From positions 66,896 through 130,895 of the forward strand of contig JBDRKE010000010.1 in assembly GCA_043814315.1 (NCBI GenBank): a DNA stretch of 64,000 nt, read 5' to 3'. The first letter of the stretch is position 1; each line of letters begins with the position of its first letter. Both the position numbers and the translations under genes were made by a program. Below are positions 2,928-60,935 of the stretch, in pieces. The stretch comes from Candidatus Omnitrophota bacterium. GTDB taxonomy: Bacteria > Omnitrophota > Gorgyraeia > Gygaellales > Profunditerraquicolaceae. The notes under the pieces are model-generated. The model was given only the letters and a program-made list of their open reading frames with translations, ran no database searches and was not told the DNA's origin.

Positions 2928-2959
2928 GTAGCGGGTGGCTTGGACTGATGAGTATAAAA

Positions 2960-3192
2960 ATGCACCTGGCGAGGTGCGAGCGAATGGAGCTTTTAGCAAG
3001 AGGAGCTTGAGCATTTGAGGGAATCTCGAGGTCAACGCGAAGCGTTGGCAATCTCGGGACGGCTGTGGGTGTCTGAGCGACGAGCGAGAGCGCGAGGAGC
3101 GAGTTCCGCAGACGCCGAAAATGCGAAAGAACTCTTGCGTCCTGAGCGAAGCGAAGGAAAAGCGACCTGAGCGAGCAGCTTGGCAGGTGCAT
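2960..3192. repeat. 233-bp GC/purine-rich intergenic element bounded by a short inverted repeat
   Basis: Left end atgcacctg (2960..2968) is the reverse complement of right end caggtgcat (3184..3192). The interior is full of gagcgaagcgaagg / gagcgacgagcgag motifs related to the cores at 15996..16024 and 18648..18690. Confidence 0.6.
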
Positions 3193-3221
3193 GTAACCGT
3201 CAAATAGTTTGGTAAGATTCC

Positions 3222-6203: not shown

Positions 6204-6206
6204 GAA

Positions 6207-6364
6207 GCGTAAAACGCAAAGCGAAAAGCGTAAAACTAAAGCGGAAAACTTCCCGTTCGGCTATTAAATTTATTGCGGGATCCCGCTTTTCAGAAAATAG
6301 CTTAGCGGGAAAAACGTTTTGAGCTTACAACTTTAACTTTACGCTTTGCGCTTTGAGTTTTACG
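6207..6364. repeat. modular hairpin element (cgtaaaac/gcaaag arms, gcgggatcccgc core)
   Basis: The left arm gcgtaaaacgcaaagcgaaaagcgtaaaactaaagcg is roughly the reverse complement of the right arm ...ctttaactttacgctttgcgctttgagttttacg. The core holds the 12-nt palindrome gcgggatcccgc (6285..6296) and gcgggaaaaa. Confidence 0.8.
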
Positions 6365-6383
6365 TTAAAGCGAGGTGCTTGAT

Positions 6384-7094: not shown

Positions 7095-7165
7095 CGTAAA
7101 GTGCAAAGTGAAAAACGCAAAACTAAAACGCTTTAAGTTCTAACTTTACGCTTTGAGCTTTACGT
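7095..7165. repeat. coreless hairpin element (cgtaaag/gcaaag-type arms)
   Basis: gcgtaaagtgcaaagtgaaaaacgcaaaactaaaacg is followed directly by the imperfect complement ctttaagttctaactttacgctttgagctttacgt. Confidence 0.75.
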
Positions 7166-7184
7166 ACAACTTATAGGATAGAAT

Positions 7185-10476: not shown

Positions 10477-10486
10477 AATCAAAATA

Positions 10487-10610
10487 AGGTTTCATAAGGT
10501 TGCCTAAGGTTACATAATGTTCCATAAAGTTACGCCTTTGGTAACCTTACGTAACATTATGCCTGCCTGCCGGCAGGCAGGGAACCTCATGGTACCTTAT
10601 GTAACTTTAA
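10487..10610. repeat. modular hairpin element (cataaggtt-type arms, cctgcctgccggcaggcagg core)
   Basis: The left half is made of 9-10-nt units (tcataaggtt, cctaaggtt, acataatgtt, ccataaagtt). The right half holds their complements (aaccttacgt, aacattatg, aacctcatggt, accttatgt). A perfect 20-nt palindrome lies at 10562..10581. Confidence 0.8.
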
Positions 10611-10647
10611 TAATAAAATTAATAAATGAGAGGAGGTGAATTCGAAT

Positions 10648-15874: not shown

Positions 15875-18520
15875 ATGGGTAAATCACAAATCCCAATTTC
15901 CAAATCCCAAACAAATCCAAAATTCAATGCTTCGACTGCGCTTGCCATTGACACCGAGGCGGCCCTTCGTTTCGTTTCACTCGCTGTGGGTCGTCCCGAG
16001 CGAAGTCGAGGGACGAAGCCGAGGTGCCAAATCCAAAAAATTCAAATTGGCAGATTACTTGTTGTTTTTTTTGTGCTTGTATTTGCTTCGAACTACGAAC
16101 TTCGAACTCCGTACTTTGCTTATGCCCAGGATCCCAAAGAGGAAGAGGCACTCTTCGTTGCAAAGAAAGCCTTTGATGATGGTTTCTATGATGTCAGTCA
16201 GAACTTATTAGAGCGATTCCTCATTCAATACCCGCGTTCTTCAAAGACAGCGGAAATTCATCTATTGATGGGGCGTTCTTTTTTTTACCAAAATAGATTC
16301 TTGGATGCGCTTTCCAAATTTGAAGAACTTTTGGGCCAGCCCCAGGCTAAAAACCTTAAAGATGCCCTTTTTTACTGGATAGCCGAAGTCCACTTCAAGG
16401 GCAATAGTTTCAATAAGGCGGCCAGTTTTTACAAAAAGATTATTGATGAATTCCCGTCTTCTTCCTATTTAGGCGCTTCCTATTATTCATTGGCGTGGTG
16501 TTACTTCCAGGAAAGAAAATTTGAAGAGGCCCTCGCTTATTTCAAGATCATCGAAGAAAGGTACCTTCAAGAATCCTCTTTTCAAGATGCACCTTTAAAG
16601 ATCATCGAGTGCCTTTACAATTTAAAAGATTATGAGGGACTCAAAAAAAAGGTGAGGTCTTACTTGAATCTTTATCCCAAGAGCGCAGAGCAATCGCCTT
16701 ACCCCTATTTTTATTTGGCTGAAGCTGATTATTACCTCGGTAATTTTCAAGAAGCGATCGAAGAATATTCTTCGATTCTTAAGAGCAGCCTTGATCCCAA
16801 GGCGCAGGCGCTCTCGAAGATGGGTATGGCATGGTCTTATCTTAAATTGAAAAAATACAAAGAGGCAGAAAGCGCATTTTTGGATATCAAAGAAGGACAC
16901 CTTGAGAAAAGAAGCCAGGAGATCTTGCGGCTGGGTGAGGCTATCCTCATGGTTGAGACGAACCGCGTCAACGAAGCCAAAGGCATTTATGAGCAACTGC
17001 TGAGCCGTTCGGACGATCCCCTTGTTTTAATTCAGGCCTATCTGGGGAAAGCAGACGCCCTTTATAACCTTGCAGAATATCATGAGGCGATCAGCGTATA
17101 TAAAGAGGCCTTGAGTAAGTTTAGCCCCGGGACCGTTCCTCAGGAGATCATGGATAAAATACACTATAGCCTTAGCTGGACCTATTTAAAGCAGGGGGAA
17201 TTCAAGGAGGCCATCAAAGAGTTTCAGAGAATCGTCAAAGAAACAGACGATAAAATCGTTAAAGTCAGCGCGCTTTGTCAAATAGGTGATGCGTATCAGG
17301 ATTCCGGAGATTATACCGAAGCCCAGGAAGCCTATTCCGTCATATTAAAGGATTACCCCGATAATTTCTATAGCGATTATGTGCAATACCAGTTAGGCCT
17401 GACGCTGCTTAAAGCCTCTAACTATGAAGGGGCTATTATGAGCTTTCAGGCCCTCAAAAGAAATTTTCCCCAATCCAAACTTTTAGACGACGCCACGTAC
17501 GCGCTTGGGTTAGCCTATTTCCAAAGACAGGATTATAATTCCAGCCGTGTCCTCTTTGAAAGTTTTGAGCAGGAATTCAAGGATAGTCCACTTAAGCCCC
17601 AGGCCCTTTATCTTCTTGGCACCTGTTTCTATAACCTGCGTGAATTTGCCAAGGCGATTGAGGTGTTTAAGAATGTCATCAGATTGTATAGCCAGGATAC
17701 CGATTTGGTCCAGAAGGCAGAATATGAAATAGCCGATTGTTATGACCAGATGGGAGACGAAAAAGAGGCGGTGAACCGATTCAATATCTTGCGTTCCAAA
17801 TATCCTGATTCGAGCCTGACCCCCGAAGTCATGTGGTGGCTGGGAGAATACTATTACAAACATAACGAATTGGAGTTGGCGCGCCGGTACTTTTCGACCC
17901 TCATCAGAGACTTTCCCAAAAGCCCGCTGGTCGCGGATTCCTATTATGCCGTAGGGACAAGTTTTGAAGAGGAATCCAGGCATGAGGAGGCAATAGAGAA
18001 TTTTCGGAAAGTCATGGATTTGGGCAAAACCGACCTTAATGGCCAGGCTGCTATCGCTATCGCAGACATATACGTCAAACAGGAAAACCTGGAATCAGCC
18101 ATCAAGGCTTATCAGGAGATTAGCAGAGAATATCCGAATCTGACCCATTTGATTTATCCCAAGATGGCCCAGCTTTACTACAAAACTGCAGATTTCAGTC
18201 AAGCTTTAAATTTTTATCGCAAGAGCCTTGATGTGGTATCGGTAAGAGAAATGGGGAATATCCATTTTAAAATAGCCGAAGTGTTGCAAGCACAGGGAAC
18301 TCTGGATGAGGCTATAGAGGAATACCTGAAAGTCGCCTACCTTTATCCAGAGAATGACTTGCTCGCCATTAAGGCCCTTTTAAGAGTAGCTCAGATCTAT
18401 GAAGATAAAGAGAATTTTAAAGAGGCCGCGCGTATCTATGAAAAAATAGTTTCAATAGACGCTGAAGAAGCCAAGTATGCACAAGAGAGGATAGACTGGA
18501 TAAAGGTACACGTAAAATAA
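15875..18520 (+). CDS. large TPR-repeat protein (probably exported); N-terminus uncertain
   Basis: About 800 aa of tandem TPR-like repeats (the YbgF/CpoB-style pattern A..Y..A....g.y.eA). The first ~70 codons of the ORF read through an intergenic repeat element. No canonical start lies just before the hydrophobic LLVVFFVLVFAS segment. Confidence 0.7.
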   Translation: MGKSQIPISKSQTNPKFNASTALAIDTEAALRFVSLAVGRPERSRGTKPRCQIQKIQIGRLLVVFFVLVFASNYELRTPYFAYAQDPKEEEALFVAKKAFDDGFYDVSQNLLERFLIQYPRSSKTAEIHLLMGRSFFYQNRFLDALSKFEELLGQPQAKNLKDALFYWIAEVHFKGNSFNKAASFYKKIIDEFPSSSYLGASYYSLAWCYFQERKFEEALAYFKIIEERYLQESSFQDAPLKIIECLYNLKDYEGLKKKVRSYLNLYPKSAEQSPYPYFYLAEADYYLGNFQEAIEEYSSILKSSLDPKAQALSKMGMAWSYLKLKKYKEAESAFLDIKEGHLEKRSQEILRLGEAILMVETNRVNEAKGIYEQLLSRSDDPLVLIQAYLGKADALYNLAEYHEAISVYKEALSKFSPGTVPQEIMDKIHYSLSWTYLKQGEFKEAIKEFQRIVKETDDKIVKVSALCQIGDAYQDSGDYTEAQEAYSVILKDYPDNFYSDYVQYQLGLTLLKASNYEGAIMSFQALKRNFPQSKLLDDATYALGLAYFQRQDYNSSRVLFESFEQEFKDSPLKPQALYLLGTCFYNLREFAKAIEVFKNVIRLYSQDTDLVQKAEYEIADCYDQMGDEKEAVNRFNILRSKYPDSSLTPEVMWWLGEYYYKHNELELARRYFSTLIRDFPKSPLVADSYYAVGTSFEEESRHEEAIENFRKVMDLGKTDLNGQAAIAIADIYVKQENLESAIKAYQEISREYPNLTHLIYPKMAQLYYKTADFSQALNFYRKSLDVVSVREMGNIHFKIAEVLQAQGTLDEAIEEYLKVAYLYPENDLLAIKALLRVAQIYEDKENFKEAARIYEKIVSIDAEEAKYAQERIDWIKVHVK
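15881..16050. repeat. modular repeat element (aaatcccaaa arm, gagcgaagtcgagggacgaag core)
   Basis: A/C-rich arm at 15881..15927, a GC-rich core with cgaag-periodic inverted segments at 15960..16024, and a second short A/C arm at 16027..16050. Confidence 0.75.
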
Positions 18521-18536
18521 CATATAAGACAACATG

Positions 18537-18731
18537 ATAAATCCCAGATCCAAAATAAATCCCTGCCTGTGGCAGACAGGCAAAATCCCAAATCCAAAAC
18601 TATTTGGGATTTTGAAATTGGCACTTCGGGTTCGCCTCAGTGCCAATGGTGAGCGAAGTCCTGAGCTTGTCGAAGGACGAAGTCGAACCGTGGGATTTGT
18701 TTGGTAGTATTGGTATTATTTGGATTTTGTC
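18537..18731. repeat. modular hairpin element (aaatcccaaa / tttgggattt arms with two GC-rich cores)
   Basis: Left arm ataaatcccagatccaaaataaatcc, a gcctgtggcagacaggc hairpin, aaaatcccaaatccaaaac/tatttgggattttg, the core ggtgagcgaagtcctgagcttgtcgaaggacgaagtcgaac, then gggatttgtttggtagtattggtatt. Confidence 0.8.
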
Positions 18732-18753
18732 TGATTAACAGAGGAGGATAAGG

Positions 18754-19386
18754 ATGGATCTTTACAGGATGAATTTTTTTCAGGTTTTTTTAGCAGGCGG
18801 CCCGGTGATGTGGCCGATACTCTTGTGTTCTATTTTTGCGCTGGCCATAGTGCTGGAGAAGATCTGGTACTTGTATAAAATAAAAATAGACACCCAGGAT
18901 TTCTTGAACAAGATTCTGGATAAGATGAAACGCCATGACACTAAAGAGGCTTTACGCATTTGCGACGGCACAAAGAGCCCCATAGCTAATATTTTGAAGG
19001 CGGGAATTCTTAAATACGACCGGCCGCGCCCTCAGATTATAGAGGGGATCGAAGATGCTTCTTTGTATGAGATACCCCGCATAGAAAAGAATCTTACGAC
19101 GCTGGCAACCATTGCGCATGTTTCTCCGCTCTTAGGACTCTTGGGAACGGTTACGGGAATGGTGAGGTCTTTCCAAATCATCCAGGCGAAAGCCAGCAGT
19201 TTTCATCCTGTTTCTCCGGGAGATTTGGCCGGCGGGATTTGGGAGGCGTTATTAACGACAGTAGCCGGTTTGATTGTGGCCATACCTACTTTTGTAGCCT
19301 ATAATTACCTGGTTAGCCGCATCAATCATTTTATTCTGGAGATGGAAAAAGCCTCAACCGAATTGGTAAATTTTCTTACTGAATAA
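18754..19386 (+). CDS. MotA/TolQ/ExbB family proton channel
   Basis: 210 aa with three TM segments. C-terminal region GDLAGGIWEALLTTVAGLIVAIPTFVAYNYL is typical of TolQ/ExbB. Confidence 0.85.
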   Translation: MDLYRMNFFQVFLAGGPVMWPILLCSIFALAIVLEKIWYLYKIKIDTQDFLNKILDKMKRHDTKEALRICDGTKSPIANILKAGILKYDRPRPQIIEGIEDASLYEIPRIEKNLTTLATIAHVSPLLGLLGTVTGMVRSFQIIQAKASSFHPVSPGDLAGGIWEALLTTVAGLIVAIPTFVAYNYLVSRINHFILEMEKASTELVNFLTE

Positions 19387-29237: not shown

Positions 29238-29257
29238 GTTCCATACGCATAATTTAT

Positions 29258-29285
29258 TTGACTTGATTGTTTTTTGTGATATTCT
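29258..29285 (+). promoter_or_regulatory. sigma70-like promoter candidate (extended -10) for the pilin operon
   Basis: TTGACT (29258..29263), a 16-nt spacer ending in TGa, then TATTCT (29280..29285). This predicts a leader of roughly 275 nt before the pilin ATG. Confidence 0.45.
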
Positions 29286-29401
29286 AAATCAAGAGAGAGG
29301 AGGTGGTAGGTAGAGTAAATTTTTTGTTATTTCGAAAATGGTGTTATTGAAAAGTCGAAGGGCAGGTTTATCCCTCGCACCTGACAAGCCATAGATGGGT
29401 G

Positions 29402-29557
29402 CTCGGGATAATTTGCTGACCCGTAAGAGCGGGCAAATTAATTCGTTAACCCGTTATAGCTGGCGAATAATTTACTGAGCGGTTATAGCGGGGAAATTAA
29501 TCCGCTGACTAGTTATAGCAGACGGATAATTTGCTGACCCGTAATAGCGGGCAAATT
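29402..29557 (+). repeat. tandem array of five ~30-nt hairpin units directly upstream of a pilin SD
   Basis: Each unit has the form aatt-X5-...gtta/tagc...-X5'-aatt, and the outer stems differ between units (ttgc/gcaa, ttcg/cgaa, tccg/cgga). The first and last units (29406.. and 29524..) are identical except for one base. The array ends 1 nt before the aggagg SD. Confidence 0.85.
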
Positions 29558-29568
29558 AGGAGGAAAAG

Positions 29569-32187: not shown

Positions 32188-32420
32188 AAATTTTCCAGCC
32201 TCTCGCCCTTTGGGCTCGGGATAATTCGTCGACCGATAAGGTATAACGGGCGAATTAACAAGGAAAATTTTGGTGGCACTTGAACGAGCGCGGGCGAGGC
32301 AGCCCCTCGGCCGTTGGCCTCGGGATAATTCACCGATATGCAATAGCGGGTGAATTAACAAGCGAGGCAGCGAGTGAAAGTGCATACTTCCTTGATTTTT
32401 GATAAGGAAAAATTTGGTGG
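32188..32420 (+). repeat. two ~105-nt repeat units downstream of tRNA-Ala, each with a ctcgggataatt...aattaacaag hairpin
   Basis: The hairpins at 32213..32262 (aattcg/cgaatt stem) and 32318..32366 (aattcacc/ggtgaatt stem) share the ctcgggataatt lead-in seen at 29402. In addition, ggaaaa(a)tttggtgg at 32262 and 32406 is an inverted copy of the tRNA 3' end caccaaaattttcc. Confidence 0.8.
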
Positions 32421-32428
32421 CCTCCTCT

Positions 32429-33532
32429 ATGAAAAATATATTCAGATTGCCTTTGGCTGTTGTTTTATTTTCGGCAATCCTGACGGCCTGTTTCTATTGG
32501 CCGTTGATTTCAGCCGAGGCGCCCCTTAAAGAAGGCCTTTTTTATGAGAAGCTGAAAGGTAATACTGTTCAGTGTCATATCTGTCCCCGTCATTGTATTA
32601 TTCCCGCAGGCAGGCGGGGATTCTGCGGCGTCAGAGAGAATCGCGACGGCATTCTGTACGCCTTATCCTACGGAAAACTGGTTTCCGCCCATATTGACCC
32701 CATTGAAAAAAAGCCTTTGTTTCATTTCTATCCTGCCACTACCGCTTTTTCCATTGCCACGGCTGGCTGTAATTTAAGATGCAAATTCTGTCAAAACTGG
32801 GAGATCTCCCAGAGAAAACCCGAGGAGGTCAATTATAGTTATATTGAGCCCCGGGATTTAATAGAGAAGGTTATGGAATCCGGTTCTCTCACCATTGCCT
32901 ACACGTATACGGAGCCCACCATATTTTACGAATATATGCTGGAGACGGCAAAGCTGGCTAAAAAAGAAGGGATCAAAAATATTATGCACTCCTGCGGGTA
33001 TATCAACGAGCCGCCCTTGCGGGAGTTGATTCCGTATCTGGATGCCGCTAACATTGATTTAAAAGGCTTTAGCGACGATTATTATCAGAAACTTTCGGAA
33101 GCAAGCCTTGAGCCCGTACTTAACACGTTGAGGATATTAAAAGAAGAAGGGGTGCATCTGGAGATAACCAATTTGCTCTTGCCTGGATTTAACGATGATC
33201 CCGAAACGATAGCCAAGATGTGCCTCTGGATAAAAGAAAATCTGGGTGCGGATACGCCGCTGCATTTTTCCCGCTTTTTTCCGATGTATAAATTGTTAAG
33301 CTTAAACCCTACGCCTGTGCAGTCTTTAGAAAGGGCGCGCCAGATCGCGTTGGATAGCGGCCTGAAATACGTCTATATAGGGAATCTGGCAGGGCATCCG
33401 GCTGAGAATACCTATTGCCCCAAATGCAAACAGCTTTTGATTGAACGTAAGGGCTACTTTATCCTGAAAAACAATATTCAGGACGGAAAGTGCAAATACT
33501 GCGGAGAGAAGATTGAAGGAGTCTGGCAGTAA
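32429..33532 (+). CDS. AmmeMemoRadiSam system radical SAM enzyme
   Basis: Contains CHICPRHCIIPAGRRGFCGVRENRDG and the CNLRCKFCQNWE (CxxxCxxC) cluster, and is adjacent to a Memo/AMMECR1 gene. It carries an extra hydrophobic N-terminus (MKNIFRLPLAVVLFSAILTACFYWPLISA). Confidence 0.85.
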   Translation: MKNIFRLPLAVVLFSAILTACFYWPLISAEAPLKEGLFYEKLKGNTVQCHICPRHCIIPAGRRGFCGVRENRDGILYALSYGKLVSAHIDPIEKKPLFHFYPATTAFSIATAGCNLRCKFCQNWEISQRKPEEVNYSYIEPRDLIEKVMESGSLTIAYTYTEPTIFYEYMLETAKLAKKEGIKNIMHSCGYINEPPLRELIPYLDAANIDLKGFSDDYYQKLSEASLEPVLNTLRILKEEGVHLEITNLLLPGFNDDPETIAKMCLWIKENLGADTPLHFSRFFPMYKLLSLNPTPVQSLERARQIALDSGLKYVYIGNLAGHPAENTYCPKCKQLLIERKGYFILKNNIQDGKCKYCGEKIEGVWQ

Positions 33533-33547
33533 AATGAAAACACGGTT

Positions 33548-33686
33548 CAAATCCCAAATCCAAAATCCCAAATCCCAAACAAATCCCAAACACCAATTTC
33601 CAATATTTCAAACTTTAATGTTTCGGTCATTGGTCATTGGGGCATTGGTGCTTATTTGGAATTTGGTGCTTGGTACTTGGAATTTA
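33548..33686. repeat. modular hairpin element (aaatcccaaa.. / ..ttggaatttggtg arms)
   Basis: A/C-rich arm at 33548..33614 and complementary G/T-rich arm at 33626..33686. The right arm lies within the reading frame of the downstream gene. Confidence 0.8.
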
Positions 33687-35090
33687 CATGCGCAAGATAT
33701 TAAAGAACCAAACGTGGCTGGTGCTTTTTATCCGGCTAACGCCGAAGAGTTGTCCCGCATGATAGACGGTTTTCTAGTTGCGGCAACGCCTGAGTTGATC
33801 GAAGGGGACATATTCGTTTTGATTTCTCCTCATGCCGGATATGGTTATTCTGGCCAGACTGCCGCTTACGGTTATAAGTTGGTGAGGGGCAAGCCCTATA
33901 AAACCGTCATTGTTTTAGGCTCAAGCCACCATTATGGTTTTAGCGGTGCCTCTGTATATGCGCAAGGATCATTGCGCACGCCTCTGGGGGATGTGGCCGT
34001 AGATGAAGCATTCGCACAGAAACTCCTTAATAAGACTGAGGAGATATTTTTTGATCCCAGCGCCTTTGAGAAGGAACACTCCGTAGAAGTGCAATTGCCT
34101 TTTTTGCAAAAGGCGCTCTCTGATTTTAAAATCGTTCCCATTGTTATGGGCGATTGCACTCTTTCCACGTGCCAGAATCTGGCAAATCTGCTTAAAGAAG
34201 CCATCGGCGAGCGTCAGGATGTTCTTGTGGTGGCATCCACCGATATGTATCACGGCTACGATTACGATGAGGCAGATTCCGTGGATAATCTGACCCTATC
34301 TTTTTTAAAAAATATGGATGCCCAGGGTTTATATTATGGGTTACGCGAAGGCAAGCTTCAGCTTTGCGGGGGGTTTGGCGTGGTTTCTGCTATGATTTTG
34401 GCCAAAGAGTTAGGCCACCAAAAATTGAGCATTTTAAAACACACAAATTCCGCTATTGTTACCGGTGAAAAGGTTAAAGGACGCTGGACCGTCGGCTATG
34501 TCAGCTGTGTTATAGACCAGGAAAAAGGAGGAGAGGCCTTGCTAAACAAAGACCAGAGAAAACGATTGATTGAGATCGCCAGAAGCTCTATTGAAACATA
34601 CCTAAAAACCAATAAGAAATTGGAAGTCATGGTTCAGGACCCCGCGTTGTCGAAAAATATGGGAGCTTTTGTGACTCTTCATGACCGTGCAGGGTTACGG
34701 GGCTGCATCGGTAATCTTGTCGCAAGGCAGCCGCTTTATCTGACCGTCAGGGACATGGCTGTTCAGGCGGCTGTGGATGACCCGCGTTTTTCTCCTCTTA
34801 CGCTATCGGAACTTGGAGAGGTCGAGATTGAGATTTCAGTATTAACCCCCTTGGAAAGGATAGTTTCAGCAGAGGAAATACAATTAGGCACTCACGGCGT
34901 CCTGGTTATAAAAGGCCCCAACAGCGGCGTCTTCCTGCCGCAGGTCGCCGCAGAGACCGGTTGGTCCAAAGAAGAATTCCTGTCCAACCTTTGTAGTCAT
35001 AAGGCAGGCCTTTTGCCTGATGCCTGGAAGGATAAGTCAACTGAAATCTATACATTCACTGCCGAAGTATTTTCGGAAAGCAATTATTAG
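33618..35090 (+). CDS. fused AmmeMemoRadiSam protein B (Memo-like) and protein A (AMMECR1)
   Basis: The Memo part has AGAFYPANAEEL and ISPHAGYGYSG. The AMMECR1 part has GAFVTLHDRAGLRGCIGN. The start is uncertain: ATG 33618 gives a hydrophobic N-terminus encoded by the repeat arm, and downstream TTG/GTG codons are alternatives. Confidence 0.85.
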   Translation: MFRSLVIGALVLIWNLVLGTWNLHAQDIKEPNVAGAFYPANAEELSRMIDGFLVAATPELIEGDIFVLISPHAGYGYSGQTAAYGYKLVRGKPYKTVIVLGSSHHYGFSGASVYAQGSLRTPLGDVAVDEAFAQKLLNKTEEIFFDPSAFEKEHSVEVQLPFLQKALSDFKIVPIVMGDCTLSTCQNLANLLKEAIGERQDVLVVASTDMYHGYDYDEADSVDNLTLSFLKNMDAQGLYYGLREGKLQLCGGFGVVSAMILAKELGHQKLSILKHTNSAIVTGEKVKGRWTVGYVSCVIDQEKGGEALLNKDQRKRLIEIARSSIETYLKTNKKLEVMVQDPALSKNMGAFVTLHDRAGLRGCIGNLVARQPLYLTVRDMAVQAAVDDPRFSPLTLSELGEVEIEISVLTPLERIVSAEEIQLGTHGVLVIKGPNSGVFLPQVAAETGWSKEEFLSNLCSHKAGLLPDAWKDKSTEIYTFTAEVFSESNY

Positions 35091-35098
35091 AATACTTA

Positions 35099-35243
35099 TA
35101 AATTCAAATGTCAAAATCCAAAAAGAATCCCTGCCTTGCCGGCAGGCAGGCAAGGCAGGGAGGCAAATGTTAAAACAGAAGATTCATCGTTTTGAATTTT
35201 GTGCTTTGTGCTTATTTTGAATTTTGAGCTTTGTCATTTGAAT
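35099..35243. repeat. modular hairpin element (aattcaaatgtcaaaatccaaaa arm, ccctgccttgcc-ggcaggca-ggcaaggcaggg core)
   Basis: A 12-bp palindromic stem core lies at 35129..35160. The right arm ttttgaattttgtgctttgtgcttattttgaattttgagctttgtcatttgaat complements the left arm. Confidence 0.8.
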
Positions 35244-35253
35244 CTTAATTCTT

Positions 35254-40069: not shown

Positions 40070-40103
40070 GATTACACAGATTTCTAAAAGATTACACAGA
40101 TTT
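40070..40103 (+). promoter_or_regulatory. 14-nt direct repeat pair spaced 20 nt (candidate operator)
   Basis: gattacacagattt occurs at 40070..40083 and 40090..40103, preceded by the hairpin cagccc...gggctg (40040..40068). Confidence 0.3.
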
Positions 40104-40122
40104 TTCCGTCGAGTCATAACTG

Positions 40123-54594: not shown

Positions 54595-54596
54595 AT

Positions 54597-54708
54597 GGTT
54601 AAATCCCTATTTAAAAATCCCAAACAAAACATTTGGATTTGGGATTTGTTTGGTAGTATTGGGATTTTGGATTTGTTTGGGATTTGGGATTTGGAAATTG
54701 GGATTTTC
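54597..54708. repeat. modular hairpin element (aaatccc.. / tttgggattt.. arms)
   Basis: Short A/C arm at 54601..54630 and a longer G/T arm at 54631..54708 that contains gggatttgtttggtagtattgggatt (54641..54666). Confidence 0.8.
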
Positions 54709-54713
54709 CAGGC

Positions 54714-55283
54714 ATGAAAATAGGCATATTAGGGGGGACTTTCAATCCTATCCACATCGGTCATCTGATCCTGGCCGAAGAGGCCAGAGAGAAATTGAGT
54801 CTGGATAAGATACTCTTTGTGCCTACATACCTGCCTCCTCACAAAGAAGATTGCGGGATTGCGCCTGCTAAGGCTCGATTAGCCATGGTGAAGCTGGCTA
54901 TAGCCGGAAATAGGTATTTTAGCGTTTCCGATAAAGAAACCGCAAGGAACGGCCGCTCTTATACTATTGATACGATCAGAGAGCTTAAGAAGGAGCATCC
55001 CGCAGACGAATTATATTTTATTATCGGATCAGACCTGCTTAAATATTTAGAGGACTGGAAAGATTGGGATGAGATCGCGGGAATGGTAAAATTTATTGTA
55101 GCGACACGGCCCGGATATCCGCTGGAGAAGATTCCTTCTTACATCCATACGGTAGCTATCCGCGCAGTGGATGTCTCGGGCTTTCAGATCCGCACCTGCA
55201 TAAAGGAAAACAGGTCCTTCCGGTATCTGGTATCTGACGCCGTATATAAATATATAACCGAAAATAAGCTTTATGAAAATTAA
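54714..55283 (+). CDS. nadD: nicotinate-nucleotide adenylyltransferase
   Basis: MKIGILGGTFNPIHIGH start and the ISS-type motif region (VDVSGFQIR). ATG 54714 is preferred because the longer ORF reads through the repeat arm. Confidence 0.9.
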   Translation: MKIGILGGTFNPIHIGHLILAEEAREKLSLDKILFVPTYLPPHKEDCGIAPAKARLAMVKLAIAGNRYFSVSDKETARNGRSYTIDTIRELKKEHPADELYFIIGSDLLKYLEDWKDWDEIAGMVKFIVATRPGYPLEKIPSYIHTVAIRAVDVSGFQIRTCIKENRSFRYLVSDAVYKYITENKLYEN

Positions 55284-57895: not shown

Positions 57896-58022
57896 ATAGT
57901 CGCTTCTTTCCATCCGTTATCCTTTCGTTATCGTCTTTAGATTCAAAAATCTCAAAGTGAAGGGGGGTATATTTTAAAATTCAAAATTAAAAATCCAAAA
58001 TTCAAAAATAAAGGAGAAATAA

Positions 58023-59564: not shown

Positions 59565-59567
59565 TGT

Positions 59568-59734
59568 TAAATCCAAAATCCAAATATTACCAAATCCAAA
59601 ATAAATCCCAATCTCTCCCGCATAAGCGGGATCCCGCTAGACGTTACAAGTTGCGCGGGAAAAATCCCAAATAGTTTTGGATTTTGGATTTGGGATTTGT
59701 TTGGTAGTATCGGTATTAGTGGGATTTGGGGTTT
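59568..59734. repeat. modular hairpin element (aaatccaaaa / ttttggattt arms, gcgggatcccgc core)
   Basis: Left arm aaatccaaaatccaaatattaccaaatccaaaataaatccc. The core is cccgcataagcgggatcccgc...gcgcgggaaaaa, with the palindrome at 59626..59637. The right arm is agttttggattttggatttgggatttgtttggtagtatcggtatt. Confidence 0.85.
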
Positions 59735-59762
59735 ATCGGGTCATTTAAGGAAGAGGTTAATT

Positions 59763-60935
59763 ATGGAGATCGATAAACAATTAGCCATTATCAAGCGCGG
59801 CTGCGTTGGCATCATCTCTGAAGACGAGCTAAGAAGAAAATTAGAAGAGAGCCTAAAGTCAAAAAAGCCCTTGGTGATCAAGGCCGGATTTGACCCGACA
59901 GCCCCCGATATTCATTTAGGTCACACCGTTCTCTTAAGGAAGATGAGGCAATTCCAGGATTTAGGCCACCAGGTCATTTTCCTGATCGGGGATTTTACGG
60001 CGCGTATCGGCGACCCTACGGGAAGGTCGGAAAAAAGAAAACCGCTGACCCAGGAAGAAGTTGCCCGATACGCCCCCACCTATAAAAAACAGATCTCTAA
60101 AATACTTGACCTAAAAAACTTGAAGATTGTTTTTAACAGCACCTGGTTCCAAAAGATGTCTGTTCTGGATTTTTTAGAGCTCACTCAACACGCTACCGTT
60201 TCCCAGATGCTGGCCAGGGAGGATTTCAAGAAAAGATTGTTCAAACAGGAGGATATTTCTCTATTGGAATTTATGTATCCGCTTTTGCAGGGTTATGATT
60301 CCGTGGTGTTAAAAGCGGATGTGGAGTTGGGTGGTACGGATCAGATTTTTAATCTCTTGGTGGGGCGGGATATCCAAAAGGATTTTTCATTATCCCCCCA
60401 GGTGGTCTTGACTATGCCGCTTCTGGAGGGGACAGACGGCCAGCAAAAGATGAGCAAGTCCTTTGCTAATTATATCGGTATCCATGAGACTCCTCAGGAG
60501 ATGTTCGGTAAGATCATGTCTGTAACTGATGAGCTTATGCTTAAGTATTATGAACTGTTGACGGATGAGGAGATGGAGGTTGTTAAGTCGCAGCACCCTC
60601 GGCAGGCCAAGATGAATCTGGCCAGGATCATCATTACTCAGTATCATGGCGAGAAAGAGGCGCGTTTGGCCGGGGAAGAATTTGAAAGGGTGTTCAGTCA
60701 GAAGCAGGTTCCACAAGAAATTCCGTCTTACCGATTGGGTTACGAGAAAAGAAATATCCTGGATATCCTCGTTGAGAGCGGTTGTGCGGTCAGTAAAAAC
60801 GAAGCCCGCCGCCTCATCGCGCAGGGTGGGGTGTATCTGGAGAGTGAAAGAATCGATACAGAGGACGCCCTGATAGAAAAAGAAGGGATTCTTAAGGTCG
60901 GCAAGAGGCGTTTTCTAAAATTGGTCAAAAGCTAA
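59763..60935 (+). CDS. tyrS: tyrosine--tRNA ligase
   Basis: Contains the HLGH and KMSKS motifs and a C-terminal S4-like domain. ATG 59763 is preferred because the longer ORF reads through the repeat arm. Confidence 0.93.
   Translation: MEIDKQLAIIKRGCVGIISEDELRRKLEESLKSKKPLVIKAGFDPTAPDIHLGHTVLLRKMRQFQDLGHQVIFLIGDFTARIGDPTGRSEKRKPLTQEEVARYAPTYKKQISKILDLKNLKIVFNSTWFQKMSVLDFLELTQHATVSQMLAREDFKKRLFKQEDISLLEFMYPLLQGYDSVVLKADVELGGTDQIFNLLVGRDIQKDFSLSPQVVLTMPLLEGTDGQQKMSKSFANYIGIHETPQEMFGKIMSVTDELMLKYYELLTDEEMEVVKSQHPRQAKMNLARIIITQYHGEKEARLAGEEFERVFSQKQVPQEIPSYRLGYEKRNILDILVESGCAVSKNEARRLIAQGGVYLESERIDTEDALIEKEGILKVGKRRFLKLVKS

What the first reader, a model, noticed from the sequence alone, without database searches (positions are those of the whole stretch)
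18692..18717. A conserved 26-nt motif sits at a fixed distance upstream of three unrelated genes
The motif gggatttgtttggtagtat(t/c)gg(t/g)att occurs at 18692..18717, 54641..54666 and 59692..59717. All three copies are on the + strand. Each ends 36-47 nt before a start codon (the tolQ-like gene at 18754, nadD at 54714 and tyrS at 59763).

It is far better conserved than the surrounding low-complexity arm sequence. It could be a promoter or operator module, a processing site, or the conserved end of the element family.
Basis: seen in the sequence. Interest (0 to 1): 0.6.

Follow-up and report, generated by a model that had tools for sequence, protein, structure and literature searches.

The report
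Conserved core of an intergenic repeat
The 26-base motif is not a control site for three particular genes but the best-conserved piece of a small hairpin-forming "junk DNA" repeat that has spread through intergenic gaps, and, unusually, almost the same piece occurs in both bacteria (Omnitrophota) and methane-cycling archaea.

Summary
The motif occurs exactly three times, all on the + strand, 36-47 nt before the tolQ-like, nadD and tyrS start codons; chance expects none.

It is not a gene-specific promoter or operator. It is the 3' strand of the basal stem of a palindromic, MITE-like repeat that fills the spacer from the upstream stop codon to the ribosome-binding site.

- **Relatives do without it.** In close Omnitrophota relatives with the same gene order, the same three genes lack the motif. 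Their spacers are 0-45 nt, or hold an element without it.
- **The family is widespread.** A 19-mer scan found about 47 family copies in species genomes and about 89 in metagenomes.
- **It crosses domains.** Hosts include ANME-1/Methanophagales-type archaea, where it is a 192-nt element with 14-nt terminal inverted repeats and 8-bp target duplications. A 36-nt stretch is identical across domains.
- **Position and orientation.** Copies are always intergenic. Orientation is biased about 3:1 to sense, but not fixed.

An outward extended -10-like box (TGGTAGTAT) cannot be excluded as a side effect. No Rfam family, phage, plasmid or paper matches. I file it as a new member of a known kind, with an unusual cross-domain spread.

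The parts
18692..18717 (+). Motif copy 1 (GGGATTTGTTTGGTAGTATTGGTATT), the 3' strand of the basal stem of element 1
   Evidence: The 36 nt at 18692-18727 are identical to copies in other Omnitrophota and in archaeal MAGs.
54641..54666 (+). Motif copy 2 (…TATTGGGATT), inside the degenerate element 2
   Evidence: The orthologous element in SM23_72 (L053) lacks 28 nt, including GGTAGTAT.
59692..59717 (+). Motif copy 3 (…TATCGGTATT), the 3' strand of the outer stem of element 3
18539..18729 (+). Element 1, a composite palindromic repeat that fills the TPR-gene to tolQ spacer. In order it contains: the left arm AAATCCCAGATCCAAAATAAATCCC (18539-18563); a GC hairpin TGCCTGTGGCAGACAGGCA (18564-18582); an inner AAATCCC/GGGATTT hairpin; two nested foreign hairpins (GGCACTTCGGG…, GTCCTGAGCTTGTCGAAGGAC); and the right arm with the motif.
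   Evidence: As RNA it folds at -75.9 kcal/mol, z = -4.5. The same module order occurs at a non-orthologous locus in another Omnitrophota MAG (L002), with 76% identity. Five relatives have only 3-45 nt at this position.
54600..54707 (+). Element 2, a short degenerate copy that fills the proA to nadD spacer. It starts 6 nt after the proA stop codon and ends 6 nt before the nadD ATG.
   Evidence: Its orthologue in L053 is 47/49 identical in the right-hand part but lacks the motif core. In L052 the proA and nadD genes overlap.
59569..59734 (+). Element 3, a palindromic repeat that fills the S1-gene to tyrS spacer. Its left arm is 59569-59612, two GC hairpins sit in the middle, and the right arm carries the motif.
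   Evidence: It folds at -66.8 kcal/mol, z = -4.6. L053 has an element at the same site with a different right arm (TTTGGTAATATTGG). L052 has a 30-nt spacer with no element.
59581..59594 (-). Left-arm counterpart of the motif core (TTTGGTAATATTTG on the - strand). It pairs with GGTAGTAT of copy 3 through one G·U pair.
   Evidence: In other genomes the left arms carry AATACTACCAAA, the reverse complement of the core.

Best explanation
The motif is the most conserved segment of the 3' arm of a family of non-coding, imperfectly palindromic intergenic repeats. These resemble MITEs, or the ERIC and Correia elements.

**Anatomy.** Each element has an A/C-rich 5' arm built of AAATCC(C) units plus AATACTACCAAA. 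It has a variable centre, often with nested GC hairpins, and a G/T-rich 3' arm: GGGATTTGTTTGGTAGTATTGGTAT…GGATTT.

**Shown:**
- Elements are present or absent at the same intergenic sites among close relatives.
- They occur many times per genome at unrelated loci.
- In archaeal hosts they have 14-nt terminal inverted repeats and 8-bp target-site duplications.

**Inferred:**
- They are, or were, moved in trans by a DDE-type transposase.
- They survive only in intergenic gaps.

**Why the motif sits near start codons.** In this window the elements fill the spacer from just after the upstream stop codon to the ribosome-binding site. The motif lies a fixed 20-35 nt from the element's right edge. 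It therefore ends 36-47 nt before the next start codon whatever that gene is.

**Likely behaviour (inferred).** All genes here are co-directional and tightly packed. The elements are therefore most likely transcribed within polycistronic mRNAs. They would fold into long hairpins in which the motif pairs with the left arm, partly through G·U pairs.

The roughly 3:1 sense-orientation bias, and the better folding of the motif-bearing strand, suggest that the RNA (or single-stranded) hairpin form matters. It could matter for tolerance of the element, or for a mild effect on mRNA stability or read-through.

The motif is not a dedicated regulatory site of tolQ, nadD or tyrS.
For: 1. **Hairpin anatomy.** The three spacers fold at -75.9, -33.9 and -66.8 kcal/mol (z = -4.5, -2.6, -4.6). 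The motif forms the 3' strand of the outer stem in elements 1 and 3.
2. **Presence/absence at orthologous sites.**
   - L052 (TyrS 85% identical) has overlapping proA/nadD and a 30-nt S1-tyrS spacer.
   - L053/L054 (86%) have elements at both sites but without the 26-mer.
   - The TPR-tolQ spacer is 3-45 nt in L151 and L153-L156. In L152 it holds a different repeat.
3. **Repeat family.** The 19-mer occurs in 51 genome loci (about 47 family members; 15 contigs of one Omnitrophota MAG, 11 of one archaeal MAG) and in 96 metagenome loci (about 89 family members).
4. **Transposition signatures in archaeal copies.**
   - The elements are 192-198 nt, with terminal inverted repeats GTATTTGTWTAGCT / AGCTAAACAARTAC.
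   - 8-bp target duplications are seen in L028, L035, L043, L076 (two elements) and L107.
   - One MAG holds three identical copies at different loci.
5. **Shared composite architecture.** The same module order as element 1 occurs at a non-orthologous locus in another genome (L002, 76% identity).
6. **Position and orientation.**
   - Copies are always intergenic.
   - In tandem gene pairs, 29 copies are sense and 9 antisense (p = 0.0017).
   - The upstream gene is co-oriented 59:18 and the downstream gene 50:30.
7. **Strand asymmetry in folding.** The motif strand folds on average 8 kcal/mol better than its complement, in 77 of 98 copies. Left-arm variants mostly keep pairing through G·U.
Against: - The window copies have no recognisable terminal inverted repeats or target duplications. 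The archaeal repeat terminus is absent from the window, so mobility in Omnitrophota rests on presence/absence and copy number only.
- No autonomous partner element was found.
- The internal motif, rather than the termini, is what is conserved across hosts. That is atypical for a passive MITE and hints at a function I have not identified.
- The 19-mer scans find exact matches only, so its apparent invariance is partly ascertainment.
- Gene calls for the orientation table are crude longest-ORF calls.
- No transcript data exist, so hairpin formation in mRNA is inferred.
Confidence: 0.82

Rival explanations
1. The motif is an outward-facing promoter carried by the repeat. TGGTAGTAT would act as an extended -10 box (TGn + TAGTAT). 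It would restart transcription of the downstream gene after the hairpin, as described for Correia elements in Neisseria.
For: - TGGTAGTAT fits TGnTAnnnT, with A2 and T6 of the -10 hexamer.
- Copy 1 is followed by a second, better box, TGGTATTAT.
- The implied 5' UTRs of about 30-45 nt are reasonable.
- The genome does use sigma-70-type promoters (TTGACA-N17-TATAAT is seen in other spacers).
- In SM23_72 the orthologous tyrS element has a terminator-like GC hairpin plus T-rich arm, directly followed by TGGTAATAT.
- Downstream genes are co-oriented in 50 of 80 scored copies.
Against: - No acceptable -35 exists. The consensus scan reports no promoter at any of the three sites.
- nadD in SM23_72 keeps the element but has lost GGTAGTAT. 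L052 and five tolQ relatives have no spacer for a promoter at all.
- The same sequence is conserved in archaea.
- Orientation follows the upstream gene more closely than the downstream gene. Divergent (promoter-side) spacers are the rarest setting, at 6 copies.
Confidence: 0.15
2. The motif is an operator. A transcription factor would bind it and co-regulate tolQ, nadD and tyrS as a regulon.
For: - There are three copies at similar distances from start codons.
- The motif contains a tandem 9-mer, TGGTAGTAT-TGGTATTAT.
Against: - The genes are functionally unrelated.
- The motif is absent upstream of the same genes in close relatives.
- In other genomes it lies next to arbitrary genes in both orientations, including between convergent gene ends.
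- It is always embedded in the repeat.
Confidence: 0.03
3. The element, with the motif as one strand of its stem, is a selected cis-acting RNA structure. It could be a 3'-end stabiliser, an RNase III or RNase E processing site, or an attenuator between cistrons, rather than a merely tolerated parasite.
For: - There is a sense-orientation bias in tandem pairs of 29:9, and association with gene 3' ends of 59:18.
- The motif strand folds 8 kcal/mol better than the opposite strand.
- G·U pairs sit in the consensus stem, and wobble is retained in variants.
- The elements begin 1-17 nt after stop codons.
Against: - Relatives lacking the elements show no compensating structure.
- No compensatory double substitutions could be scored, because the motif was fixed by the search design.
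- No Rfam family matches.
- No + strand terminator-like site is found in the three spacers.
- The bias could equally come from replication-linked insertion, or from selection against the antisense form.
Confidence: 0.3
4. The motif is conserved because it is the binding or recognition site of the protein that moves the element (a transposase, or a host factor such as a nucleoid protein). This would be analogous to subterminal transposase-binding repeats.
For: - It is the only part shared by bacterial and archaeal versions, while the termini and centres differ.
- It contains tandem 9-mers (TGGTAGTAT / TGGTAKTAT), duplicated further in some genomes.
- A reverse-complement copy sits in the other arm, as expected for symmetric binding sites.
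- A 36-nt stretch is identical across domains.
Against: - No candidate protein or autonomous element was found.
- In archaea, other repeat 'flavours' share the same terminal inverted repeats and target duplications but lack the motif. The termini, not the motif, therefore look like the transposase site there.
Confidence: 0.2

Closest known systems
MITEs (miniature inverted-repeat transposable elements) of bacteria and archaea
   Same: - Small (about 110-230 nt), non-coding and palindromic.
- Many copies per genome at unrelated intergenic sites.
- Presence/absence differences between relatives.
- Archaeal copies have 14-nt terminal inverted repeats and 8-bp target-site duplications.
   Different: - The window (Omnitrophota) copies show no clear terminal repeats or duplications.
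- The arms are low-complexity heptad-like units.
- The part conserved across hosts is internal, not terminal.
- No cognate insertion sequence has been identified.
ERIC/IRU elements of enterobacteria and Correia (CREE/NEMIS) elements of Neisseria (comparison from my own knowledge of the literature)
   Same: - Imperfect palindromes of 100-160 bp.
- They lie in transcribed intergenic regions and are co-transcribed into hairpins.
- Their effects on flanking mRNAs depend on orientation.
- Correia ends carry -10/-35-like boxes, comparable to TGGTAGTAT here.
   Different: - There is no sequence similarity.
- Those families are confined to one bacterial lineage each, whereas this one spans Omnitrophota, other bacterial MAGs and several archaeal orders.
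- Processing and promoter activity are untested here.
REP / REPIN elements mobilised by RAYT (TnpA-REP) transposases (comparison from my own knowledge)
   Same: - Short conserved intergenic sequences occurring as inverted pairs that form a long hairpin.
- The core contains GTAG, as REP heads do.
- They are enriched at gene 3' ends.
   Different: - Each arm here is G/T-only or A/C-only, so it is not itself palindromic.
- The archaeal copies make 8-bp target duplications, which Y1 (HUH) transposases do not.
- No RAYT gene was looked for or seen.
Intergenic TAACTGA heptamer repeats of Beggiatoaceae and cyanobacteria (PMC4679880, abstract, seen)
   Same: - Abundant intergenic arrays of a 7-nt unit.
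- They are shared between distantly related lineages.
- They have been proposed to act post-transcriptionally.
   Different: - Those are direct repeats of a single heptamer, without a palindrome or a unique conserved core.
- The unit sequence is different.

Membership tests
MITE | Terminal inverted repeats | tested here: inconclusive
   Archaeal copies have GTATTTGTWTAGCT / AGCTAAACAARTAC at sharp boundaries. The window has no such terminus. Its elements share only a loose ATGnTAAATCC…GGATTT symmetry.
MITE | Target-site duplication | tested here: inconclusive
   8-bp duplications are seen in L028 (AAAGAAAA), L035 (AAAGTATA), L043 (GATTTTCT), L076 (CTAACTTC, GAATCTTC) and L107 (CCGAAATA). None is discernible in the window copies. 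A TA duplication at the tyrS site is possible but unproven.
MITE | Multiple copies at non-orthologous loci, small size and no coding capacity | tested here: met
   There are 3 copies in the window, 15 contigs in Zod_Metabat.1076 and 11 in archaeon Yes46-13. Three copies in one MAG are identical. Contigs break inside the repeat.
MITE | Insertion polymorphism at orthologous sites | tested here: met
   All three window sites are empty or differently filled in syntenic relatives.
MITE | Cognate autonomous element with the same termini | tested here: not met
   No pair of terminal inverted repeats more than 400 nt apart occurs in about 1 Mb of fetched loci. The public collections could not be searched further.
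Sigma-70 promoter (extended -10 class) | -10 hexamer with A2/T6 preceded by TGn | tested here: met
   TGGTAGTAT is present in all three copies. It matches TATAAT at 4 of 6 positions.
Sigma-70 promoter (extended -10 class) | -35 hexamer at 16-18 nt, or an overall consensus score | tested here: not met
   The scan reports no promoter-like site overlapping the motif at any of the three loci.
Sigma-70 promoter (extended -10 class) | Conservation upstream of the same gene in relatives | tested here: not met
   The motif is absent upstream of tolQ, nadD and tyrS in relatives.
Sigma-70 promoter (extended -10 class) | A primary transcript 5' end downstream of the box | not testable with these tools
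   No transcript data are available.
Intrinsic terminator | GC-rich stem-loop followed by a T run on the transcribed strand | tested here: not met
   There are no + strand terminator-like sites in the three spacers. Two such sites lie on the - strand in element 1.
REP/REPIN-RAYT | Each repeat unit is itself a short palindrome, and a RAYT gene is flanked by units | tested here: not met
   The arms are strand-asymmetric (G/T versus A/C) and cannot self-pair. 8-bp target duplications occur in archaeal copies. The RAYT gene was not searched for.
Any curated RNA family (Rfam 15) | Covariance-model match | tested here: not met
   The only gathering-level hit in the window is a tRNA. Elements 1 and 3 give no hit at E ≤ 1.

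The most novel reading that the evidence does not exclude
The GGGATTT/TGGTAGTAT module may be a functional unit that is exchanged between Bacteria and Archaea sharing anoxic sediments, or selected in both.

**What supports this:**
- The same 36-55-nt core sits inside otherwise different carriers. In ANME-1-type archaea these are MITEs bounded by terminal inverted repeats and target duplications. In Omnitrophota they are elements without such termini.
- In both hosts the core lies alongside other shared low-complexity 'flavours', such as GATTACACAGATT.

**What it would imply:** the conserved core would be what matters, as an RNA or single-strand hairpin signal or as a protein-binding site. The family would then mark recent inter-domain transfer of non-coding DNA. 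One possible route is physical association of Omnitrophota with archaeal hosts.
Probability: 0.2. Interest if true: 0.75.

Novelty: new member of a known kind. Interest (0 to 1): 0.42.

Why it matters
**For annotation.** The motif should be masked as repeat sequence. It should not be used to infer a regulon or promoters in Omnitrophota genomes.

**For biology.** The family is a convenient marker of a process that fills operon spacers in some Omnitrophota lineages while close relatives stay compact.

Its near-identical core in ANME-1/Methanophagales, Syntrophoarchaeum and Methanosarcinales MAGs is an unusually clean case of non-coding sequence shared across domains. It could be used to trace gene flow, or physical association, between these uncultured groups.

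If the sense-orientation bias reflects an RNA-level role, these elements would also affect how polycistronic mRNAs are read in organisms with no genetics.

Tried and rejected
- **Sigma-70 and terminator scans** of the three spacers found no promoter at the motif and no + strand terminator.
- **Rfam**, at gathering level and at E ≤ 1, found nothing.
- **Viral contig scan** with the 19-mer gave 0 hits. Phage and plasmid BLAST of element 3 and of the archaeal element gave no match.
- **Literature searches** found nothing relevant. I searched for MITEs in ANME-1, for repeats in Omnitrophota and for the sequence strings themselves.
- **Exact look-up of the window's TyrS** was not on record. The source was identified through the homologue search instead.
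- **tblastn of window proteins** against the first 51 loci found no orthologous loci among them.
- **Search for an autonomous element** between distant terminal-repeat pairs in all loci found none. The archaeal repeat terminus gives only chance matches in coding sequence in the window.
- **Covariation test** on archaeal copies was uninformative for the motif itself, because the motif was fixed by the search design.
- **Ideas considered and dropped:**
  - CRISPR array: single dispersed copies with no spacers.
  - G-quadruplex signal: the motif itself lacks G runs.
  - Mis-binning as the cause of the archaeal hits: flanking genes are PolB, HdrA2, MptN and an S-layer protein.

Full report
**1. 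Observation**

The degenerate 26-mer GGGATTTGTTTGGTAGTATYGGKATT matches at 18692, 54641 and 59692, all on the + strand. Nothing else matches even with three mismatches allowed, and none of 100 dinucleotide-preserving shuffles gave a match.

All long ORFs of the window lie on the + strand. The three copies sit in the spacers 18521-18753, 54595-54713 and 59565-59762.

Orthologue N-termini confirm the start codons at 18754, 54714 and 59763. The motif therefore ends 36, 47 and 45 nt before them.

**2. Local anatomy**

Each spacer is a long imperfect inverted repeat.
- The 5' arm is A/C-rich, built of AAATCC(C) units.
- The 3' arm is G/T-rich, built of GGGATTT units.
- GC-rich hairpins are nested in the middle.

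As RNA the spacers fold at -75.9, -33.9 and -66.8 kcal/mol (z = -4.5, -2.6, -4.6). In elements 1 and 3 the motif is the 3' strand of the outer stem.

Element 3 carries a degenerate reverse-complement copy of the motif core in its left arm (59581-59594). The elements begin 1-17 nt after the upstream stop codon. They end just before the ribosome-binding site, or, for nadD, 6 nt before the ATG.

Other spacers of the window hold other 'flavours' of the same design, namely low-complexity inverted arms with different unit sequences.

**3. Promoter, terminator and RNA-family tests**

- The sigma-70 consensus scan reports no promoter-like site at the motif in any of the three spacers. It also reports no + strand terminator-like site.
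- By eye the motif contains TGGTAGTAT, an extended -10-like box (TGn + TAGTAT), but no usable -35.
- Canonical TTGACA-N17-TATAAT promoters do occur in other spacers, so the organism uses the standard type.
- Rfam gives only a tRNA in the window, and nothing for elements 1 and 3 at E ≤ 1.

**4. Who the host is, and what relatives look like**

TyrS and TolQ of the window are 100% identical to proteins that NCBI names as from a Candidatus Omnitrophota MAG, on a 133-kb contig. Syntenic loci were fetched from relatives.

| Site | Relative | What is there |
|---|---|---|
| proA-nadD | L052 (TyrS 85%) | genes overlap, no spacer |
| S1-tyrS | L052 | 30-nt spacer, no element |
| S1-tyrS | L053/L054 (Omnitrophica WOR_2 SM23_72, TyrS 86%) | element present; right arm reads GGGATTTATTTTGGATTTGGTAATATTGGGATTT |
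| proA-nadD | L053/L054 | element present; right-hand part 47/49 identical to the window, but 28 nt including GGTAGTAT missing between two GGATTTGTTTGG direct repeats |
| TPR-tolQ | L151, L153, L154-L156 (TolQ 89-93%) | spacers of 45, 14 and 3 nt |
| TPR-tolQ | L152 | 204-nt spacer filled by a different repeat flavour |

The 28-nt gap at the nadD site of SM23_72 is most simply a slippage deletion. All three genes therefore do without the motif in close relatives. In several relatives there is no room for any promoter or operator.

**5. The motif belongs to a large repeat family that crosses domains**

*Genome scan.* The invariant 19-mer was scanned against one genome per species. It hit 51 loci, of which about 47 are clearly the same element.
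- Bacterial hosts: four Omnitrophota MAGs (15 contigs of Zod_Metabat.1076), a 'Proteobacteria' MAG (3 contigs) and a Planctomycetia MAG.
- Archaeal hosts: several Methanophagales/ANME-1 MAGs, archaeon Yes46-13 (11 contigs), Methanosarcinales, Syntrophoarchaeum, Methanomicrobia, and MAGs labelled Thermoplasmata and Halobacteria.

*Are the archaeal contigs really archaeal?* Yes. Genes on them include family-B DNA polymerase, HdrA2, the tetrahydromethanopterin glutamate ligase MptN and a Methanomicrobia-type S-layer protein.

*Metagenome scan.* This gave 96 more loci, about 89 of them family members. They include a large subgroup with its own consensus, and tandem arrays with 74- and 81-nt periods.

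*How far conservation extends.* In 101 de-duplicated copies the ungapped conserved block runs from about -9 to +45 relative to the motif start. A 36-nt stretch, GGGATTTGTTTGGTAGTATTGGTATTATTTGGATTT, is identical in window element 1, other Omnitrophota copies and archaeal copies.

*Both arms carry the core.* The left arms carry AATACTACCAAA, the reverse complement of the motif core. The core GGTAGTAT therefore faces outward at both ends.

**6. Evidence for mobility**

- In archaeal MAGs the element is 192-198 nt long, with sharp boundaries.
- It has terminal inverted repeats GTATTTGTWTAGCT / AGCTAAACAARTAC.
- It has 8-bp target-site duplications: AAAGAAAA, AAAGTATA, GATTTTCT and CTAACTTC.
- One MAG has three identical copies at different loci.
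- Elements with the same termini and 8-bp duplications, but different low-complexity interiors, also exist: GATTACACGGATT-type in L076 and L036, and GATACATG-type in L107.
- In Omnitrophota, window element 1 and L002 share the same order of five modules at non-orthologous loci, with 76% identity.
- Three contigs of one MAG end inside the repeat.
- I found no terminal repeats or duplications in the window copies, and no autonomous element.

**7. Position and orientation**

This analysis used 110 de-duplicated copies and crude longest-ORF gene calls.
- No copy lies inside a gene. The apparent 'inside' cases are stop-to-stop ORFs that run upstream through the element.
- In tandem gene pairs, 29 copies are sense and 9 antisense (binomial p = 0.0017).
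- Convergent spacers hold 11 copies and divergent spacers 6.
- The upstream gene is co-oriented in 59 of 77 copies. The downstream gene is co-oriented in 50 of 80.
- In Zod_Metabat.1076 alone the split is about 8 sense to 5 antisense.
- When a same-strand gene follows, the distance to its start ranges from about 24 to several hundred nt, with about half between 30 and 80.

Orientation is therefore biased but not fixed. It tracks the gene upstream more than the gene downstream, which is the opposite of what a promoter predicts.

The motif-bearing strand folds on average 8 kcal/mol more stably as RNA than the complementary strand, in 77 of 98 copies (Wilcoxon p = 5e-10). The consensus stem contains G·U pairs, and left-arm variants often keep pairing by wobble.

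**8. Interpretation**

*Shown.* The motif is the conserved core of the 3' arm of a palindromic intergenic repeat family. The family is polymorphic among relatives, multi-copy, and in archaea bounded by terminal inverted repeats and target duplications.

*Inferred.*
- The elements are mobilised in trans by a DDE-type transposase.
- They persist only in spacers.
- They are co-transcribed with the surrounding operons and fold as hairpins.
- The near-constant distance to start codons follows from two facts. The motif sits a set distance from the right edge of the element, and the element fills the spacer up to the ribosome-binding site.

*Not excluded.*
- The outward TGGTAGTAT box may give some promoter activity.
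- The hairpin may be selected as an mRNA stabiliser or processing site.
- The core may be a protein-binding site.

**9. Comparison with known systems**

The archaeal form meets the operational definition of a MITE, except that no cognate autonomous element was found.

The bacterial form behaves like ERIC or Correia elements, which are co-transcribed intergenic palindromes. This comparison rests on my own knowledge of that literature.

It is not REP/REPIN-like in detail. The arms are not self-palindromic, and the archaeal copies make target duplications.

Heptamer-repeat networks in Beggiatoaceae (PMC4679880, abstract seen) are a loose parallel.

No Rfam family, phage, plasmid or viral contig holds the element, and no paper in the searchable library mentions it.

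**10. Verdict**

The promoter/operator reading is not supported. The 'conserved part of the element family' reading is supported with a correction: it is the core of the arm, not the end.

The family is a new member of a known kind, an intergenic MITE-like repeat. The unusual aspect is the near-identical core in Bacteria and Archaea. That keeps the score moderate rather than low.

Noticed in passing
window 6204-6374, 7095-7184, 10477-10635, 35091-35253, 57896-58022, 29238-29568, 32240-32398: At least five other 'flavours' of intergenic inverted repeat occupy other spacers. All have low-complexity arms with the same 5' A/C-rich, 3' G/T-rich polarity. Examples are cgtaaaacgcaaagc/gctttgcgttttacg, ataaggtt…, aattcaaaat/attttgaatt and gataatttgctgacccg…cgggcaaatta.
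   Followed up: partly
window 40080-40115; L036:3980-4260; L076:5262-5432; 11 of 156 loci: The 13-mer GATTACACAGATT occurs twice in a window spacer. It also occurs inside archaeal MITEs that share the GTATTTGTWTAGCT termini and 8-bp duplications with the GGGATTT-type element. It appears to be a second repeat flavour shared across domains.
   Followed up: partly
window 15880-15930 and 33541-33606: AAATCCC-type left-arm-like runs lie at the very 5' end of long ORFs (the 881-aa TPR/YfiO-like gene and ORF 33513-35090). Either half-elements have been absorbed into N-terminal coding sequence, or the true start codons lie downstream.
   Followed up: no
window 18640-18690 and 2928-3221: These regions hold fragments of a GTCCTGAGC(N)GTCGAAGGAC-type hairpin repeat, which translates as VLSLSKDE / FDKLRT. 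One fragment is nested in element 1 and several lie in the 294-nt spacer at 2928-3221. L002 and L039 carry the same module before the motif.
   Followed up: no
window 18561-18585, about 10570-10590, about 35130-35165; L053 4686-4708 and 9905-9925; L002: A GC-rich perfect palindrome, CCTGCCTGCCGGCAGGCAGG and variants, recurs inside repeats of different flavours. In element 1, read on the - strand, it forms a terminator-like hairpin plus T-rich tail.
   Followed up: no
L130:151-331, L067:19-118, L057:1495-1587: Tandem arrays of the motif-bearing right arm occur in metagenome contigs, with periods of 81 nt (three units in L130) and 74 nt.
   Followed up: no
L152:2797-3000: The TPR-tolQ spacer of one relative is filled by a different repeat flavour (…gggactaatttgtcgacccgcaagatgcgggcaaattaa). 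The window has the GGGATTT element at this position, so the same spacer has been colonised independently.
   Followed up: partly
window 54700-54716: nadD has no recognisable Shine-Dalgarno sequence. The element runs to 6 nt before its ATG (gggattttccaggcATG). In relative L052 nadD starts at a TTG inside the end of proA, behind GGTGAGG.
   Followed up: no
L050:4936-5224: This archaeal copy of the element is interrupted, within the motif region, by a nested GC-rich repeat (GCCCTTACAGGGCTTGCGGG…GGGGCAGAGCCCCAC). Repeats therefore insert into repeats.
   Followed up: no
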